A stretch of DNA of 57,858 nucleotides from a virus (lineage: Duplodnaviria > Caudoviricetes). The position numbers and the translations under genes were made by a program. The stretch is taken from positions 1 to 57,858 of the IMG/VR virus record IMGVR_UViG_3300021197_001375; one strand, written 5' to 3'. Positions 52,739 to 57,858 of the stretch are shown here, in pieces (the first letter of the stretch is position 1; the number at the start of each line of letters is the position of its first letter). The notes beneath the pieces were generated by a model, which was not told the origin of the DNA, made no database searches, and saw nothing but the letters and a program-made list of their open reading frames with translations.

Positions 52739-53272
52739 TTAAACTCCTAAGATACCGGGTAATCCTCCAACGGCAACACCAGCTCTAGCTTGACCTTCTT
52801 CCATTCTTAAGAAGTCATCTATTTCCATGATTGGAAATCCTGGCATTTGTTCGTTCATATTGTATTTGTAATTTTCGTAAGCATCTAAATCTTCTTGACT
52901 ATAATTACCTGGCATATACTTAGCCATTCTCATTTCTTCTGTATCTCCTCCACCAGAAGACATTTCAAAATAAAATTCTTTTAGTTCATCAATACTTCTA
53001 GGTCTTCGTTTTTTTCTTTTGATAAATTCTTCTACGATAGCTTCCATAGTTACTCTTGGATCAATTGTTTTTGCTGATGCTTGCATGATACCTTCTTTTT
53101 CCATAGGTCTACTTCCTTTTAAAATTTTTTCAAAATCACCCATGGGATCCATGCTGATTTCTTTTATTTGTATGTTATTCCTTTTTATGTAGTCCGTCAA
53201 GGATTCTCCTGCTTCAACTCCTACACCAGAATTGTAAGAATCTATTACATCTGCGTAACTTTCAAATTCCAT
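52739..53272 (-). CDS. Acidic Met-rich hypothetical protein
   Basis: Ends VAVGGLPGILGV; coupled to terL. Confidence 0.65.
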   Translation of the reverse strand: MEFESYADVIDSYNSGVGVEAGESLTDYIKRNNIQIKEISMDPMGDFEKILKGSRPMEKEGIMQASAKTIDPRVTMEAIVEEFIKRKKRRPRSIDELKEFYFEMSSGGGDTEEMRMAKYMPGNYSQEDLDAYENYKYNMNEQMPGFPIMEIDDFLRMEEGQARAGVAVGGLPGILGV

Positions 53273-54747
53273 TAATAATACGTCCTTTGTTTAGGTGGAA
53301 TTATTTCATCCTGATAGTCTTCAGGGTGTTGAATTAGGCCACCTTGCCTAAATCTCATTACAGCTTGTGTCATTGAGTCTACCAAGTCATCGTGATCGCC
53401 ATAAGGAAAAGCTGCGCATTCCTCAATAACTTCTTGTGCAAACTCCATTTCTTTGGGCGCCCATATCAGTCCCGACTCAAAGAGCGGAGATACTGCGTTT
53501 ACCCTAGTATGCTTATCATTGCCTCTACTAGGTGTAAAATTTATAACAGGAATTCCCATCTTACGCAACTCATAAGTTAAGGGTAGTCCAGAAGCTTTTG
53601 ATTCTATGATGACTGTTTCTGGATTCCAGTAGCCGTATTGTTCAAGCGCGACTCTACGCAACTCAGGAAACTCATATCGTTCTTTCACTGCATCTAATAA
53701 AATTAAATTCGGTGGACTATCTTCATCTGGACGAAAAACTCCCCACGTTGTAATTGCAGAAAAGTCTGCGGTTTGTTTTTTCATAAAAGCTGTATCATAA
53801 GATTGTATTACATGTTGAAGAGGAGGTAGATCATCCTCTTCCCAGGAACGCCACCATTCTCGTTTTATCAAAGCTCCTTCTTCTGAAGTAGGATTTTGCA
53901 TATACTGTGCATTCCATTTTGATAAAGGAATAGAAGCTTTAACAGATTCTAAATCTTTTATTTCCCAATACTCAGGCCAAACAGGTTTACCTGATGGAAG
54001 GATAGCAGGAAATTCTACAATGTCCCATTGATCAGCTTTAATTTCTTTTTGTGCATTAAGTAGTCTACCTGTTAAATCTTTTTCATTCCAACGAGTCATG
54101 ATTACTATAATAGATCCACCAGGTTGAAGACGTTGTCTTGGTCCTGATGTATACCATTCGTAAGTTCGTTCTAATGCTTGTGCATTCATTGCATCTTGTT
54201 CAGAATGTGGGTCATCAATAATTAAAAGATCTGCACCCCTTCCTGTTATTGCCGAACCTACACCCGCTGCATAATACTCGCCTCCTTGAGCTGTTTCCCA
54301 TTTGCCGGCAGCTTGTGAGTCTTCTCTCAGTTTTGTATTAAATACTTTTTGATATTCAGGGGAGTCAATCAAAGCTTTAGCCTTACGACCAAACCTTACA
54401 GATAATTCTGTTGTATTAGTAGATTGAATAATTTTTAGTTTAGGATTTCTACCTACCATCCACGCAGGTAAAAGATAAGATCCAAATTCAGATTTGGTAT
54501 GTCTTGGTGGCATATTAATAATTAATCTTTTTATTTCACCAGATGCTAGCTTATTAAATTTTTCTGCAATTTCTTTGTGGTGTTTACCTTCTATAAAATC
54601 AGGCCAAACATGTTTAACAAAAGTTAAAAAATCAGTTTGAATAGATTGTTGTTTTTTCTTTTCACCATATTTATTTGCTAATAATGCAAACTGTCTTCTG
54701 ACATCAGCAGGTAGCTTATCTAAGTTCTGTATAAATTTTTCATTCAT
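53272..54747 (-). CDS. terL: Terminase large subunit
   Basis: MPPRHTKS Walker A, LLIIDD Walker B, HDDLVDS nuclease motif. Confidence 0.95.
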   Translation of the reverse strand: MNEKFIQNLDKLPADVRRQFALLANKYGEKKKQQSIQTDFLTFVKHVWPDFIEGKHHKEIAEKFNKLASGEIKRLIINMPPRHTKSEFGSYLLPAWMVGRNPKLKIIQSTNTTELSVRFGRKAKALIDSPEYQKVFNTKLREDSQAAGKWETAQGGEYYAAGVGSAITGRGADLLIIDDPHSEQDAMNAQALERTYEWYTSGPRQRLQPGGSIIVIMTRWNEKDLTGRLLNAQKEIKADQWDIVEFPAILPSGKPVWPEYWEIKDLESVKASIPLSKWNAQYMQNPTSEEGALIKREWWRSWEEDDLPPLQHVIQSYDTAFMKKQTADFSAITTWGVFRPDEDSPPNLILLDAVKERYEFPELRRVALEQYGYWNPETVIIESKASGLPLTYELRKMGIPVINFTPSRGNDKHTRVNAVSPLFESGLIWAPKEMEFAQEVIEECAAFPYGDHDDLVDSMTQAVMRFRQGGLIQHPEDYQDEIIPPKQRTYY

Positions 54748-54979
54748 AAAATTTTTTCGCAAAATTTTTTTACAAGTATTTTGAAAACTTATAAAGTATT
54801 TTACCACTATCTATCTAAAAATCCAGCAAATCTAGTGTAGGTTGTGGGACCCCTAGGCTAGATATAAAAAACATTTTTTAGGAATTTGCAAAATTAGGAA
54901 TGGCTCTGGGACCACTACGCGTGGCGTGGCGCTGGCTGGCGCCACAACCTATAGTTGATGCGTTTACTGCATACAACTA

Positions 54980-55168
54980 TTAATCTAAAAGGGTCATATA
55001 AGCTTGAGGATTTAACCTGCTAAACTTAGATAAACCTTTTTGCATTGCATCATACTGCTCAGTTTCTTCTGCATGTTTAATTAAATGATAAAGAGCAAAC
55101 TCTTCTTCACTTAACATCTCAGATTGACCAGAGTATGGGTTTGTTGCTTTCATATTTCTAATTGTCAT
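54980..55168 (-). CDS. Early hypothetical protein
   Basis: ATNPYSGQS...NPQAYMTLLD; ATG 7 nt after a -10 box. Confidence 0.65.
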   Translation of the reverse strand: MTIRNMKATNPYSGQSEMLSEEEFALYHLIKHAEETEQYDAMQKGLSKFSRLNPQAYMTLLD

Positions 55169-55171
55169 ATC

Positions 55172-55204
55172 TGGGATCATATAGGATAAGTCAAGCATTG
55201 TCAA
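55172..55204 (-). promoter_or_regulatory. Early promoter with TGGGAT-N4-TAGGAT operator
   Basis: TTGACA-N17-TATGAT; operator at 55172-55187. Confidence 0.7.
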
Positions 55205-55825: not shown

Positions 55826-56761
55826 TTAATTTACACTTTGTTGCATTTGTTGTCTTGCAATAGCGATCTTTTGATCTCTAGTTAAAACCTCTTTATCTTC
55901 CAAAAGATTAGCCAGATTTTCTGGTGAATAAATTGAAAGTGCCATTGAACTACTTTCATTTAACATTGTTTCATTTAAAACAACTCCGACTTTATCTGCG
56001 AGTGCTTTTGCTTGGTCAAATGTTCTGTAAGATTTTAAACCTAATCTTACTTTTTGCATTTTGTCCTCAACATAATCATACATTTGTTGATGTTCTTTGA
56101 TTACATTGTCAGCACTAGAAACATACATCTTAAAAAAGTTTAATGTATTTTCATCAACTTTAAACTGCCTTGAATGACAATAATTACTTCCTATTGTCCA
56201 AAGTTTAAAATCATTTTCCCATTTATCTTTAGGATATTCTGTTCCTGTTGCATCATTCCTTGAATGATTAAAACCCAAAAATTTATTTACTGCTGTTTCA
56301 TCTGCATAATATTTTGGATTTCTTTTTGAGTAGTCATTATTAATAGATAAATTGAAATCAGGATTAAGACCTTTTGCTTTCATGTCATCACGATAATATG
56401 CTCTTGCAAAGTTTTTACCCATATTAAATCTTACATGAACTTCATCTTTGCTTTCATACTCTCTACCCTCATCATCAACTTTCATAATTGGTTTTTCAAC
56501 CCAAAAACAATTATCTTGATACAACTCGCCACCACTTCTATTGTATTTAGAAATCATTCTTCTAATTGTATCAATGTCCTCTTGGGGTTGATGAAACCTT
56601 ACAACTTTCTCAATCTGCTCTTTTGCCTTTTCACGCATAAGATCGTATTGTTCTTTTGCTTGTATCAATTTATCTTTTACTTTATCTTCGTAAAAAGATT
56701 GAAATTGATCTGCAACAACTTTACGTTTATCTGCGTTTAATGTTATTTTTTTAGTTTGCAT
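55826..56761 (-). CDS. Early hypothetical protein (311 aa)
   Basis: AAGGAG SD, own promoter; no motif recognised. Confidence 0.8.
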   Translation of the reverse strand: MQTKKITLNADKRKVVADQFQSFYEDKVKDKLIQAKEQYDLMREKAKEQIEKVVRFHQPQEDIDTIRRMISKYNRSGGELYQDNCFWVEKPIMKVDDEGREYESKDEVHVRFNMGKNFARAYYRDDMKAKGLNPDFNLSINNDYSKRNPKYYADETAVNKFLGFNHSRNDATGTEYPKDKWENDFKLWTIGSNYCHSRQFKVDENTLNFFKMYVSSADNVIKEHQQMYDYVEDKMQKVRLGLKSYRTFDQAKALADKVGVVLNETMLNESSSMALSIYSPENLANLLEDKEVLTRDQKIAIARQQMQQSVN

Positions 56762-56998: not shown

Positions 56999-57027
56999 TT
57001 GACTCCTAAGTTATCCTATGTTATAAA
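56999..57027 (+). promoter_or_regulatory. Strong rightward early promoter
   Basis: TTGACT-N17-TATAAA with TGn extended -10; operator at 57003-57018. Confidence 0.8.
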
Positions 57028-57032
57028 GCGCT

Positions 57033-57194
57033 ATGACTGATAAAAATAAAATAGATAAAATACACGACAAGTTAATTCTTCAGGCTAAGAAATTAGCATT
57101 AGTAGAATTACAAATTAAAATAAAAGAAGATATTGAGAAACTTGATACAGAATTAAATTGTATTGATTCCGATGAGGATGAAATACCATTTTAG
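57033..57194 (+). CDS. 53-aa coiled-coil protein with SSB-type acidic C-terminus (DEDEIPF)
   Basis: MTDKNKIDKIHDKLILQAKKLALVELQIKIKEDIEKLDTELNCIDSDEDEIPF; directly after promoter; not in ORF track. Confidence 0.75.
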   Translation: MTDKNKIDKIHDKLILQAKKLALVELQIKIKEDIEKLDTELNCIDSDEDEIPF

Positions 57195-57200
57195 ATAATT

Positions 57201-57608
57201 AGATGGGACAGCAAAAGTTTAAATGCTGGGGTTATGGACCACCTCTGAAATTGGGTGGAGAGATCAAAAAGTTCCAGTCCCCGAAGCCATCTTTTATCAG
57301 GCGGGGAACTTAGAATTAAAGCTATGCCCCGCCTGATCCCAGATCCATTAGGTTATTACCGATAATGCGTGCCGGCGCCCTAATGGATCTGGGATCAGTT
57401 ATCCAAGACCCCGCTGGATACAGTTGGGGAAGAATGCATAGATAGATATGGATCTGGACTATGCCTGATCAAGATCAGCGGGCTAAGTCCGAAAGGGTGA
57501 AGTTTTGGGAACCCCTGTCCGAAAATCCACTTTAGTGTGGGTGCTGATCCCAGATCCTTGGTGATGCGGCTTCTTAAATCGTATGCGATCCAAGGATCTG
57601 GGATCAGC
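57201..57608 (+). ncRNA. GC-rich non-coding array of stem-loops (candidate ncRNA cluster)
   Basis: Perfect 20-bp (57333-57352/57379-57398) and 19-bp (57543-57561/57590-57608) stems with a shared 14-nt arm, plus four other stem domains. Confidence 0.6.
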
Positions 57609-57623
57609 CCTGAGTGGAAAGCT

Positions 57624-57670
57624 TCAAGCGTCAAGCTTCAAGCGTCAAGCGTCAAGCTCAAGCCACAAGC
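57624..57670 (+). repeat. Tandem (N)TCAAGC heptamer array
   Basis: Seven CAAGC copies with period 7,7,7,7,6,7, running into TTGACA. Confidence 0.9.
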
Positions 57671-57699
57671 TTGACAGCTGGGCTGGGATATGATAGGAT
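57671..57699 (+). promoter_or_regulatory. Early promoter with TGGGAT-N4-TAGGAT operator
   Basis: TTGACA-N17-TAGGAT; operator at 57684-57699. Confidence 0.7.
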
Positions 57700-57720
57700 A
57701 AAATTATAAAGGAGAAATAT

Positions 57721-57855
57721 ATGATTAAAAAAAATAATGATCCATTTGGTTTTAACAAAGCCATTAATTGGGAAAAATTAGAAGATCCAAAAGTATTAAA
57801 AGAATTAAAAAAACTTTTTGATGAAGAGGAGAAAAAAGAAAATGAAAACAAGTGA
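57721..57855 (+). CDS. Early hypothetical protein (44 aa)
   Basis: AAGGAG SD; MIKKNNDPFGFNKAINWEKLEDPKVLKELKKLF...; next ORF (ATG 57842) truncated by window. Confidence 0.7.
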   Translation: MIKKNNDPFGFNKAINWEKLEDPKVLKELKKLFDEEEKKENENK

Positions 57856-57858
57856 AGC

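What the first reader, a model, noticed from the sequence alone, without database searches (positions are those of the whole stretch)
57296..57608. Interlocking hairpin array with a repeated 14-nt arm and unique structured inserts: candidate novel system
Seen: CTGATCCCAGATCC occurs at 57333 and 57544, with reverse complements at 57385 and 57594. These form perfect 20- and 19-bp stems around unique 38- and 36-nt inserts; one apex is T-shaped (ATTA-CCGA-TAAT plus GCG-TGCCGG-CGC). Other stems reuse the same junction bases (57296-57337, 57393-57470, 57473-57549), so adjacent folds are mutually exclusive. Twelve GATC sites fall in this span, mostly in pairs 7 nt apart, the same period as the adjoining CAAGC array. 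Each arm contains the TGGGAT operator half-site, and 11 nt match the promoter at 55169-55179. G-U-compatible pairs favour a plus-strand RNA from the 56999 promoter. Inference: a modular small-RNA cassette array (constant processing stems, variable payloads, e.g. RNase III-released anti-defence or decoy RNAs), or DNA cruciform/recombination sites that shuffle inserts. It is not CRISPR, because the repeats alternate in orientation.
Basis: partly seen in the sequence, partly recalled or inferred. Interest (0 to 1): 0.85.

Follow-up and report, generated by a model that had tools for sequence, protein, structure and literature searches.

The report
Hypervariable RNA hairpin cassettes in pelagiphages
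The two long hairpins belong to a previously undescribed family of conserved stem-loops, with a constant stem and an ever-changing top, that sit as shuffled cassettes in one non-coding locus of the ocean's most abundant SAR11 phages and most likely act as RNA.

Summary
The window is a near-complete HTVC023P-type pelagiphage; its TerL is 87% identical to that of HTVC027P. The two hairpins (57333-57398, 57543-57608) are members of a family found in 67 of 68 related loci, at 1-5 units per phage. I collected 247 distinct units in 191 apex families.

- **Constant stem.** The outer stem is constant and carries a conserved U.U mismatch at position 9. The helix is held at 17-21 bp whatever the size of the top.
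- **Pairing.** Covariation is strong: 95.7% of cells are paired, and the score is 0.363 against 0.123 in shuffles.
- **Strand.** Wobble pairs are strand-specific: 98 G.U against 3 A.C. The pairing strand is the coding strand of the downstream GP88 gene in 142 of 143 loci. This points to a single strand, most likely RNA.
- **Mobility.** Units move as cassettes: 111 of 153 same-family pairs have unrelated flanks on both sides. They are never inverted, show no target duplications, and occur nowhere else in the genome.
- **What is absent.** No Rfam family matches, and the phage encodes no integrase, resolvase, reverse transcriptase, Y1 transposase or RNase III.

Processing and any anti-defence role are untested. 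The GATC, operator and promoter-match arguments are incidental. Function is unknown. My best model is a recognition or processing helix, possibly for host RNase III, that presents variable structured RNA modules.

The parts
56999..57027 (+). Sigma-70-like promoter (TTGACT, 17 nt, TATAAA), divergent from the 311-aa gene; the likely start of the transcript that carries the hairpins.
   Evidence: Read from the sequence. The consensus scan did not list it because the last base of the second hexamer is A. Relatives carry TTGACA-17-TATATT at the same place.
57033..57194 (+). Small ORF of 53 aa between the promoter and the structured region. It is present only in some relatives.
   Evidence: L004 and L048 have it; most loci go from the promoter straight into structured RNA. 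No Pfam or PHROG match.
57203..57295 (+). 5' structured domain that begins GGGAC. In this form it is shared only with the 99%-identical relative L004.
57296..57337 (+). Hairpin abutting unit 1. The core is 57301-57306 / 57327-57332. A 5-bp extension overlaps the first bases of the arm.
   Evidence: core pair probability 1.0. Found in 6 loci. Compensated versions occur in HTVC027P and 023Pt_psg01.
57333..57398 (+). Hairpin unit 1: 20-bp perfect stem, constant arms, unique structured apex.
   Evidence: I1. Covariance model: 55.6 bits, E 2.7e-14. Apex shared only with L004 and L098.
57399..57464 (+). Linker module A: two predicted small hairpins.
   Evidence: Found only in L004 among the viral loci. 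Present in contigs of RNA libraries X17, X18 and X19.
57465..57478 (+). 'Empty' arm pair, CTGATC-AA-GATCAG: the outer heptad halves of a unit with nothing between them.
   Evidence: AAA in L004; also present in L023.
57479..57542 (+). Linker module B, a mobile module shared at 97-100% identity with five otherwise different loci.
   Evidence: L004, L023, L032, L152, L185. In RNA-library contigs it sits in a different order relative to module A.
57543..57608 (+). Hairpin unit 2: 19-bp perfect stem, constant arms, apex not seen in any other locus.
   Evidence: I2. Covariance model: 54.8 bits. Apex has no match.
57619..57672 (+). CAAGC heptad array that closes the structured region and overlaps the -35 of the next promoter.
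   Evidence: 10 matches of CAAGCNNCAAGC in the window against 0.07 expected. It holds the same position in relatives.
57671..57699 (+). Promoter (TTGACA, 17 nt, TAGGAT with TG) of the downstream small ORF and GP88 operon.
57721..57855 (+). Small ORF of 44 aa.
57842..57858 (+). First 17 nt of the GP88 (PF17338) gene, cut off by the end of the contig.
   Evidence: Identical to the start of the GP88 gene in L006. GP88 lies downstream of the units, on the same strand, in 142 of 143 loci.

Best explanation
The two hairpins are units of a conserved, strand-specific stem-loop family that acts as single-stranded nucleic acid, most probably RNA. They are transcribed from the sigma-70-like promoter at 56999, as part of a long mosaic non-coding transcript or leader that runs towards the GP88 operon.

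Each unit is a helix of about 19 bp. Its outer 13 bp are constant: two CTGRTCC heptads with a central U.U mismatch inside a locally two-fold CCUGG/CCUGG core. Its inner 4-8 bp are unit-specific. Its top is a hypervariable, itself structured, module of 13-114 nt.

My model is that the constant, length-ruled helix is a recognition or processing platform for a dimeric double-strand-RNA protein. The host's RNase III is the simplest candidate, because the phage encodes none. The helix would present, or release, the variable tops. After a central cut, the linker modules could also be released, since they would then be closed by the complementary half-arms. The conserved arms are also the only homology between otherwise unrelated neighbours, so recombination between co-infecting phages reassorts whole units.

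- **Shown:** the hairpin, its covariation, its strand asymmetry, its orientation, its confinement to one locus, and cassette-like shuffling with fast turnover.
- **Inferred:** it is RNA (about 0.8); the constant helix is a protein recognition or processing site (about 0.5); the protein is RNase III (about 0.3).
- **Unknown:** what the payloads do.
For: **Family.**
- 67 of 68 related loci with at least 600 nt upstream hold one or more units. Among 61 loci with at least 1200 nt, 1 has no unit, 31 have one, 23 have two, 5 have three and 1 has five.
All 117 new loci encode relatives of window proteins.

**Pairing.**
- Over 148 units, 18 pairs: 95.7% of cells are paired against 83.5% in shuffles.
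- 13 pairs change on both sides, in 328 cells. The covariation score is 0.363 against 0.123 (0 of 500 shuffles reach it). Slid controls give 0.047-0.074.

**Single strand.**
- Inside helices there are 98 G.U against 3 A.C, binomial p 1e-25.
- No locus mixes T.T and A.A orientation.
- The pairing strand equals the GP88 coding strand in 142 of 143 loci. The 311-aa gene is on the opposite strand in 125 of 126.

**Ruler.** In 162 of 191 units the helix is 17-21 bp (median 19). Helix length does not correlate with unit length, r 0.009.

**RNA-like company.**
- Flavobacterium-1 RNA (RF02976) lies in the same locus of HTVC027P (90 bits) and of L206 (104 bits).
- An H-type pseudoknot occurs with 4 and 5 compensated stem versions and invariant loops, in 13 distinct instances.

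**Transcription context.**
- Promoters lie upstream and there is no terminator-like site.
- The genes just downstream in HTVC027P, gp34 and gp33, are highly expressed at 6-9 h after infection (PMC12753301, section 12 read).
- Contigs of RNA libraries from three studies carry modules of this region.

**Shuffling.**
- Of 153 same-family pairs, 111 have unrelated flanks on both sides.
- 202 of 205 locus pairs whose flanking gene is 88-93% identical share no apex family.
Against: - **No direct proof of an RNA.** The laid runs are contigs, which cannot show strand, ends or level, and DNA can be present in RNA libraries.
- **Single-stranded DNA is not excluded.** It tolerates G.T too. The authors of the 224-motif paper state that ssDNA and RNA structures cannot be reliably told apart by sequence analysis (PMC5737381, passages read).
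- **The outer arm is unusually conserved.** 145-148 of 148 units agree at most of the outer arm positions. That is more than RNase III is known to need (my recall). It fits a sequence-specific protein or concerted evolution as well.
- **Palindromic hexamers are enriched in the tops.** 132 of 191 tops carry one, against 84 +/- 6.7. This could point to a DNA-level origin.
- **The GC island is not specific to the hairpins.** In relatives it extends over the GP88 operon, so high GC alone does not argue for RNA structure.
- **The fold energy does not pick a strand**.
- **The window's own two stems are perfect palindromes** and carry no strand information.
Confidence: 0.55

Rival explanations
1. **Single-stranded-DNA recombination sites of an integron-like cassette system.** The hairpins fold in one DNA strand, as attC sites do, and an unknown host or phage recombinase uses them to insert, excise and reorder non-coding cassettes at this one locus.
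For: - The anatomy resembles attC: units of 50-114 nt, a conserved outer stem, a conserved unpaired position and a variable terminal structure.
- There is a single orientation, a single locus downstream of a promoter, and a variable number of units.
- Cassette-like reassortment occurs, and the left flank is kept more often than the right (18 against 4).
- Turnover is fast.
- An 'empty' arm pair lies at 57465-57478.
- RNA-library contigs show module order permuted at the arms.
- Strand-specific G.T tolerance also fits ssDNA.
Against: - The window genome (95% complete) has no tyrosine or serine recombinase, Y1 transposase or reverse transcriptase.
- HTVC027P is described as lacking lysogeny genes (PMC12753301, passage read).
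- The arms do not carry the attC core boxes as I recall them.
- No ORFs lie between units.
- The stems are long and nearly perfect rather than imperfect with extrahelical bases.
- The tops and linkers are themselves conserved structures with compensated changes and a pseudoknot, which a recombination site does not need.
Confidence: 0.12
2. **Selfish hairpin-forming mini-elements (REPIN- or MITE-like)** that pile up in a permissive non-coding hotspot. The constant arms are the ends recognised by a mobilising enzyme, and the phage gains nothing.
For: - The constant arms are inverted.
- Whole units are found in unrelated contexts.
- Copy number varies.
- Modules are shared at 97-100% identity between diverged loci.
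Against: - Units never occur elsewhere in the genome.
- Their orientation is always the same.
- There are no target-site duplications: the distribution equals the re-paired control.
- No transposase is present.
- Compensatory changes occur inside the arms, and helix length is tightly held.
- At least one unit is present in 67 of 68 loci of a streamlined lytic phage, which argues for selection.
Confidence: 0.08
3. **Double-stranded DNA protein-binding sites**: a pac site with methylation-sensitive GATC repeats as in phage P1, a replication origin with iterons, or operator palindromes at the border between the replication and structural modules.
For: - It is the densest GATC cluster of the genome.
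- It lies between terS (1937-2458) and terL (53272-54807), at a divergent promoter region.
- The heptad periodicity is shared with the adjoining CAAGC array.
- HTVC027P encodes a putative methyltransferase.
Against: - The inner GATC is replaced by GGTC/GACC in most units.
- Unit-specific stem extensions are always complementary.
- The 98 to 3 excess of G.T over A.C cannot arise in duplex DNA sites.
- Compensated double changes occur at arm positions 3, 5, 7, 10-14.
- The number and content of sites change completely between close relatives.
Confidence: 0.04
4. **A purely cis-acting leader.** The hairpins stabilise, time or anti-terminate the transcript of the GP88 operon, and the variable tops have no function of their own.
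For: - The hairpins lie between a promoter and the operon, on the same strand.
- There is no terminator.
- gp34 and gp33 of HTVC027P form a temporal class of their own (PMC12753301, section 12 read).
Against: - The downstream genes have their own promoter after the CAAGC array.
- The tops keep internal structure through compensated changes, and recurrent motifs such as UUCUAGA are enriched (18 apex families against 1.6 expected).
- A known free-standing RNA family sits in the same locus.
Confidence: 0.15

Closest known systems
Integron attC sites and cassette arrays
   Same: - Hairpins of similar length, with conserved outer stems, a conserved unpaired position and variable terminal structures.
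- One strand matters.
- The arrays sit in one orientation at one locus behind a promoter.
- Cassettes are reassorted between genomes.
   Different: - No integrase is present.
- No ORF cargo lies between the sites.
- The arm sequence is different.
- The stems are long and nearly perfect.
- The host is a lytic phage.
- The cargo is itself structured non-coding sequence.
RNase III processing hairpins of phage T7 early transcripts (recalled, not tested here)
   Same: - Phage-encoded hairpins of about two helical turns with a central irregularity.
- They are strung along an early or middle transcript.
- A host enzyme does the cutting.
   Different: - T7 sites separate protein-coding cistrons and are not sequence-constant.
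- They do not carry hypervariable tops.
- Cleavage here is untested.
REP / BIME / REPIN elements
   Same: - Short palindromic units in alternating orientation, with variable linkers.
- They form hairpins in transcripts.
- Their sequence is kept constant by a dedicated mechanism.
   Different: - REPs are scattered over bacterial chromosomes and depend on a RAYT (Y1) transposase, which is absent here.
- These units are confined to one locus.
- They show compensated arm changes and a helix of fixed length.
CRISPR arrays
   Same: - A constant repeat alternates with hypervariable inserts.
- The array sits at one locus behind a promoter.
- Content turns over rapidly.
   Different: - The repeats here are inverted, not direct.
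- The inserts are GC-rich and structured.
- No cas genes are annotated in the relative HTVC027P.
Phage-borne structured RNAs of unknown function: Flavobacterium-1 RNA (RF02976); GOLLD and ROOL
   Same: - They are structured non-coding RNAs carried by phages.
- Flavobacterium-1 RNA lies in this same locus in HTVC027P and in L206.
   Different: - The window has no match to any Rfam family.
- The hairpin units are a separate motif.
- They are modular and hypervariable rather than one conserved fold.

Membership tests
Any Rfam 15 family | Score at or above the family's gathering threshold | tested here: not met
   There were 0 matches in the whole window. At E up to 10, only sub-threshold microRNA-precursor models matched, the best being mir-769 at 26.8 bits against a threshold of 57. 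That reflects a generic long hairpin.
Integron attC site | Adjacent IntI tyrosine recombinase | tested here: not met
   PF00589 gave 0 matches in the 95%-complete genome. The control matched in 14 of 14 genomes.
Integron attC site | Conserved core boxes at the two ends (RYYYAAC and GTTRRRY, recalled) | tested here: not met
   The ends are CTGATCC... and ...GGATCAG in 145-148 of 148 units.
Integron attC site | Sites separated by gene cassettes | tested here: not met
   Units lie 0-120 nt apart with no ORF between them.
Integron attC site | Folds and recombines as single-stranded DNA of one strand | not testable with these tools
   The strand asymmetry fits both ssDNA and RNA.
CRISPR array | Direct repeats with unique spacers | tested here: not met
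   The repeats alternate in orientation and pair with each other.
REP / REPIN | Many dispersed copies, and a RAYT (Y1 transposase) | tested here: not met
   Units occur only at this locus. PF01797 gave 0 matches.
MITE | Terminal inverted repeats flanked by a target-site duplication | tested here: not met
   The distribution of abutting direct repeats equals the re-paired control: 192 of 245 units have none, against 189.8 in the control.
Invertible segment / shufflon | The segment between inverted repeats is found in both orientations | tested here: not met
   One inverted against 73 direct apex matches between distinct units. No locus mixes orientations.
RNase III substrate | Double-stranded RNA helix of about two turns | tested here: met
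   The helix is 17-21 bp in 162 of 191 units, median 19. The outer A-U, G-U or G-C pair is present in 84 of 148 units.
RNase III substrate | Staggered cleavage in the helix | not testable with these tools
   The laid runs were contigs, which show no ends.
Retron or DGR RNA | Neighbouring reverse transcriptase | tested here: not met
   PF00078 gave 0 matches.

The most novel reading that the evidence does not exclude
This is a cassette system for structured non-coding RNAs. The constant inverted arms serve both as recombination joints and as RNA processing or recognition helices. Through them, the most abundant phages of the ocean exchange, reorder and display a hypervariable repertoire of small structured RNAs. 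It would be an RNA counterpart of an integron or a CRISPR array, driven by an arms race with SAR11 hosts or with competing phages: decoys, sponges or specificity tags.
Probability: 0.2. Interest if true: 0.95.

Novelty: new variant of a known kind. Interest (0 to 1): 0.78.

Why it matters

A locus in these phages that keeps a strictly conserved helix while replacing its structured tops almost completely between close relatives is a clear signature of diversifying selection on non-coding sequence. It gives a concrete and abundant target for studying RNA-level phage-host or phage-phage conflict in SAR11, an organism with very few protein regulators and no CRISPR (the latter two points recalled).

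It also re-attributes an Rfam family, Flavobacterium-1 RNA, to pelagiphages. And it offers a natural example of a constant-stem scaffold that carries interchangeable RNA modules.

Tried and rejected
- **Rfam** at gathering and at permissive thresholds: nothing for the window.
- **tRNA / tmRNA:** none.
- **blastn of the region against 50,697 phage records:** no match. The relatives are too diverged outside the arms.
- **Pattern scan of bacterial and archaeal genomes:** 84 stretches, about the number I expect by chance (roughly 67, by my own equal-frequency arithmetic).
  - Most lack any stem extension or are unrelated palindromes.
  - Five look real, on short low-GC marine MAG or SAG contigs.
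  - Four of those five encode pelagiphage proteins.
  - So there is no sign of the element in host chromosomes.
- **HTVC023P itself:** no unit in the 15 kb fetched.
- **RNA-library contigs** (X15, X17, X18, X19): they cover parts of the region, but contigs cannot show transcription, strand or ends. Parts without cover mean nothing.
- **DNA inversion and target-site duplication:** both rejected.
- **Phage-encoded recombinase, reverse transcriptase, RNase III:** none found.
- **GP88 fold:**
  - Foldseek gave no match at E 0.001 or better.
  - VIA-align's best rows are radical-SAM enzymes at Z 5-6.5. That is too weak to name a fold.
  - The PDB sequence profile search gave nothing below E 0.5.
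- **Literature:** searches with HTVC023P; pelagiphage + noncoding RNA; pelagiphage + hairpin; and pelagiphage with inverted repeat, structured RNA, riboswitch or small RNA gave no description of this element in the held library.
- **Flavobacterium-1:** the term is not in the main text of PMC5737381. Its supplement, and Table S3 of PMC12753301, could not be opened and may bear on that motif and on expression of the region.
- **Tool availability:**
  - The look-up of sequencing runs failed twice as busy before it answered.
- **Complex prediction:** no job was sent, because no candidate partner protein is defined.
Full report
**1. What the window is.** The window is one IMG/VR virus record of 57,858 nt, classed linear and 95% complete. 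Its large terminase (53272-54807, minus strand) is 86.6% identical to that of Pelagibacter phage HTVC027P, 70% to phage 023Pt_psg01 and 61% to HTVC023P. It is therefore an HTVC023P-type pelagiphage.

In HTVC027P the corresponding place lies at the border between two modules:
- the replication module: primase, helicase, DNA polymerase A, a putative methyltransferase, exonuclease, small terminase;
- the structural module.

In the window the finding lies between a 311-aa gene of unknown function (55826-56761, minus strand) and the end of the contig. The contig breaks 17 nt into a GP88 (PF17338) gene.

**2. The observation.**
- The 14-nt arm and its reverse complement are where stated, and the stems are perfect over 20 and 19 bp.
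- The 10-nt arm core occurs exactly only at these four places in the genome.
- Twelve GATC sites fall in 57296-57608 against 1.2 expected, the densest such stretch of the genome.
- The region is a GC island. It folds with z about -8 on either strand.
- No Rfam family reaches threshold and there is no tRNA.
- The exact sequence is held by 14 DNA runs, so it is not an assembly artefact.

**3. Relatives.** I fetched 80 loci by the flanking 311-aa protein and read the 1.5 kb upstream of that gene in the window's orientation.
- 67 of 68 loci with at least 600 nt there carry one or more units of the form 5' CTGATCCC(T/A)G ... C(T/A)GGGATCAG 3'.
- Among the 61 loci with at least 1200 nt, 1 has none, 31 have one, 23 two, 5 three and 1 five.
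- The cultured phages HTVC027P and 023Pt_psg01 each have one. The 15 kb fetched from HTVC023P has none.
- A pattern scan of viral contigs hit its limit at 120 stretches. All 117 new loci encode relatives of window proteins, GP88 in 94 of them.
- The same scan of 596 Gb of bacterial and archaeal genomes gave 84 stretches, about what chance predicts (my arithmetic, about 67). Only five look like units, and four of these five sit on short contigs with pelagiphage genes.

The element is therefore confined to one clade of phages. Within a genome it is confined to one locus.

**4. Anatomy of a unit.** Across all viral loci I found 294 units, 247 of them distinct.
- The outer 13 bp are constant and read as two heptads, CTGATCC-CTGRTCC.
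- Position 9 is a T.T (U.U) mismatch in 86 of 95 units of the first set. The rest have A-T (4), T-A (4) or G-C (1).
- Beyond position 13 the helix continues with 4-8 unit-specific pairs.
- The helix is 17-21 bp in 162 of 191 units (one per apex family), median 19. Its length does not depend on unit length, r 0.009.
- The remainder, 13-114 nt with a median of 33, is the top.

**5. Is the pairing selected?** I tested an alignment of 148 units, one per apex family of at most 100 nt (148 of 191 families).
- The 18-pair helix has 95.7% of cells paired, against 83.5% in shuffles.
- 13 pairs change on both sides, in 328 cells.
- The covariation score is 0.363 against 0.123 (0 of 500 shuffles reach it). 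The same structure slid by 1-3 columns gives 0.047-0.074.
- Compensated changes occur even inside the 'constant' arm: G-C to A-U, U-A to C-G, C-G to U-A or G-C.
- The inner GATC of the window's arms is GGTC/GACC in most units. Position 11 is G-C in 88 units and A-U in 58.

GATC as such is therefore not what is conserved.

**6. Which strand, and DNA or RNA?** I treated all non-Watson-Crick pairs alike.
- Helices contain 98 G.T against 3 A.C.
- No locus mixes T.T and A.A orientation.
- The strand on which the wobble pairs work is the coding strand of the downstream GP88 gene in 142 of 143 loci. It is opposite to the 311-aa gene in 125 of 126.

A duplex DNA site or a cruciform would not show this asymmetry, so the element works as one single strand. 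That strand is the one read from the promoter beside the 311-aa gene. In most relatives this promoter is TTGACA-17-TATATT; in the window it is TTGACT-17-TATAAA at 56999. No terminator-like site follows.

In HTVC027P the two genes just downstream on this strand, gp34 and gp33 (GP88), form a temporal class of their own and are highly expressed 6-9 h after infection (PMC12753301, section 12 read). The hairpin region itself was not annotated there, and the supplementary table could not be opened.

Contigs of RNA libraries from three studies carry modules of the region. Contigs cannot prove transcription.

I put RNA at about 0.8. Single-stranded DNA remains possible, as the authors of PMC5737381 stress for such motifs (passage read).

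**7. The tops and the neighbours.** The 247 distinct units fall into 191 apex families, defined by 8-mer sharing of at least 25%.
- Within families the sub-helices of the top keep pairing through double changes (families 8 and 10).
- Motifs recur across unrelated families: TTCTAG in 18 of 191 (1.6 expected) and TCTAGA in 15 (1.8 expected). Palindromic hexamers occur in 132 of 191 tops, against 84 +/- 6.7.
- One apex family is the same H-type pseudoknot that follows the last unit in many loci. It has 13 distinct instances, 4 and 5 compensated versions of its two stems, and invariant loops.
- In HTVC027P, and in a scaffold labelled as a Flavobacterium single-cell genome, the locus also holds Flavobacterium-1 RNA (RF02976) at 90 and 104 bits. 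That is 2 of the 40 loci scanned.
- That scaffold encodes GP88 at 87% identity and TerS at 77% identity to pelagiphage proteins. This Rfam family is thus at least partly a pelagiphage RNA.

The locus as a whole is a mosaic of structured modules, closed by a CAAGC heptad array and the next promoter.

**8. Cassette behaviour.** I compared units of the same apex family in different loci.
- Of 153 pairs, 111 have unrelated sequence on both sides, 20 the same on both sides, 18 only on the left and 4 only on the right.
- Tops are never inverted: 1 inverted against 73 direct matches.
- There is no target-site duplication.
- Turnover depends on how far the flanking gene has diverged:

| Identity of flanking gene | Locus pairs | Result |
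|---|---|---|
| at least 97% | 4 | all 4 have identical unit sets |
| 93-97% | 3 | none shares any family |
| 88-93% | 205 | 202 share no family |

- The window's linker module B (57479-57542) is 97-100% identical in five otherwise different loci. Apex 1 is shared with two loci and apex 2 with none.
- In two RNA-library contigs, modules A and B stand in the opposite order, joined within arm sequence.
- The window also holds an 'empty' arm pair at 57465-57478.
- The genome encodes no tyrosine or serine recombinase, Y1 transposase, reverse transcriptase or RNase III.

**9. Mechanism.**
- **Shown:** a length-ruled, sequence-constant helix with a central U.U, selected on one strand. It carries hypervariable structured tops and is reassorted as a cassette at one locus.
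- **Inferred:**
  - The mismatch lies at the centre of a locally two-fold CCUGG/CCUGG core, 8 bp from the bottom and about 10 bp from the top of a helix of two turns.
  - That geometry suits a dimeric double-strand-RNA enzyme such as host RNase III.
  - A central cut would free the tops as small hairpin RNAs.
  - It would also leave each linker flanked by complementary 8-nt half-arms, so that linkers too become stem-closed RNAs.
  - The arms are the only homology between unrelated neighbours, so ordinary recombination between co-infecting phages would reassort units without a dedicated recombinase.
- **Unknown:** what the payloads do. Their diversity and turnover suggest conflict, but nothing here tests it.

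The main rival is an attC-like single-stranded DNA recombination site. Its anatomy and genetics are strikingly similar, but three of its defining features were tested and not met.

**10.
- The 'interlocking' stems are real. They follow from the fact that any 3' arm can pair with any 5' arm. The unit-specific extensions show which register is selected, and in the computed ensemble the unit stems dominate.
- The particular overlap of the neighbouring hairpin with unit 1 is not conserved in HTVC027P or 023Pt_psg01.
- The operator half-site and the 11-nt promoter match carry no weight.

**11. Verdict.** The finding is real, conserved and undescribed in Rfam. Searches of the held literature also turned up no description. 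I file it as a new variant of a known kind: a phage-borne structured non-coding element organised as a cassette array. The bolder reading, an integron- or CRISPR-like system for RNA modules, remains open at about 0.2.

Noticed in passing
window 57619-57672 and 1-100: CAAGC heptad arrays: 10 matches of CAAGCNNCAAGC against 0.07 expected. They stand directly upstream of TTGACA promoters, and the last repeat overlaps the -35. In relatives two or three such arrays occur per locus. They are often read through by small ORFs with a conserved INHWRWLE-like segment, so repeat number would change the reading frame of the tail.
   Followed up: partly
window 57842-57858; relatives such as L006:2515-3114: The contig ends 17 nt into a GP88 (PF17338) gene that follows the hairpin locus in 142 of 143 loci. 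The protein has seven invariant cysteines. Its model is confident (pLDDT 94), and its best structural neighbours are radical-SAM enzymes at a weak Z of 5-6.5 (QueE, spore photoproduct lyase, viperin).
   Followed up: partly
L001:3265-3385 (HTVC027P) and L206:652-771: Flavobacterium-1 RNA (RF02976) lies in the same locus. The scaffold labelled as a Flavobacterium single-cell genome encodes pelagiphage GP88 and TerS, so the family's name and host attribution probably rest on a phage fragment.
   Followed up: partly
relatives, e.g. L005, L008, L025, L039 after the last unit: An H-type pseudoknot module with invariant loops (AAGCAGAA, TGAGAA, TTGCGCGAC) and 4 and 5 compensated stem versions, in 13 distinct instances. 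It has no Rfam match. It also occurs as the top of one unit family.
   Followed up: partly
tops of units in many loci: The UUCUAGA-type motif and other self-complementary hexamers are strongly enriched in the tops, and many fall in predicted loops. This could mean loop-loop pairing between units or molecules, or a DNA-level origin of the hairpins.
   Followed up: partly
window 57465-57478; RNA-library contigs of X17 and X19: An 'empty' arm pair, CTGATC-AA-GATCAG. Contigs from other samples carry modules A and B in the opposite order, joined inside arm sequence.
   Followed up: partly
window 57671-57704 and 55161-55190; relatives: A recurrent promoter type with a GGATA...TAGGATAA element after TTGACA. 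The sequence GCTGGTC in its spacer also ends nearly every 3' module of the structured region. A GACCAG or CTAGAA stretch precedes the first unit.
   Followed up: no
window 57033: The ATG of the 53-aa ORF lies about 6 nt after the -10 hexamer of the 56999 promoter, so this ORF would be translated from a leaderless mRNA if it is a gene.
   Followed up: no
L207, L219, L220, L230, L232, L238, L253, L261, L266 (Blastocatellia MAGs): The pattern scan picked up unrelated hairpins built from CCTGATT-type heptad repeats in several Blastocatellia genomes.
   Followed up: no
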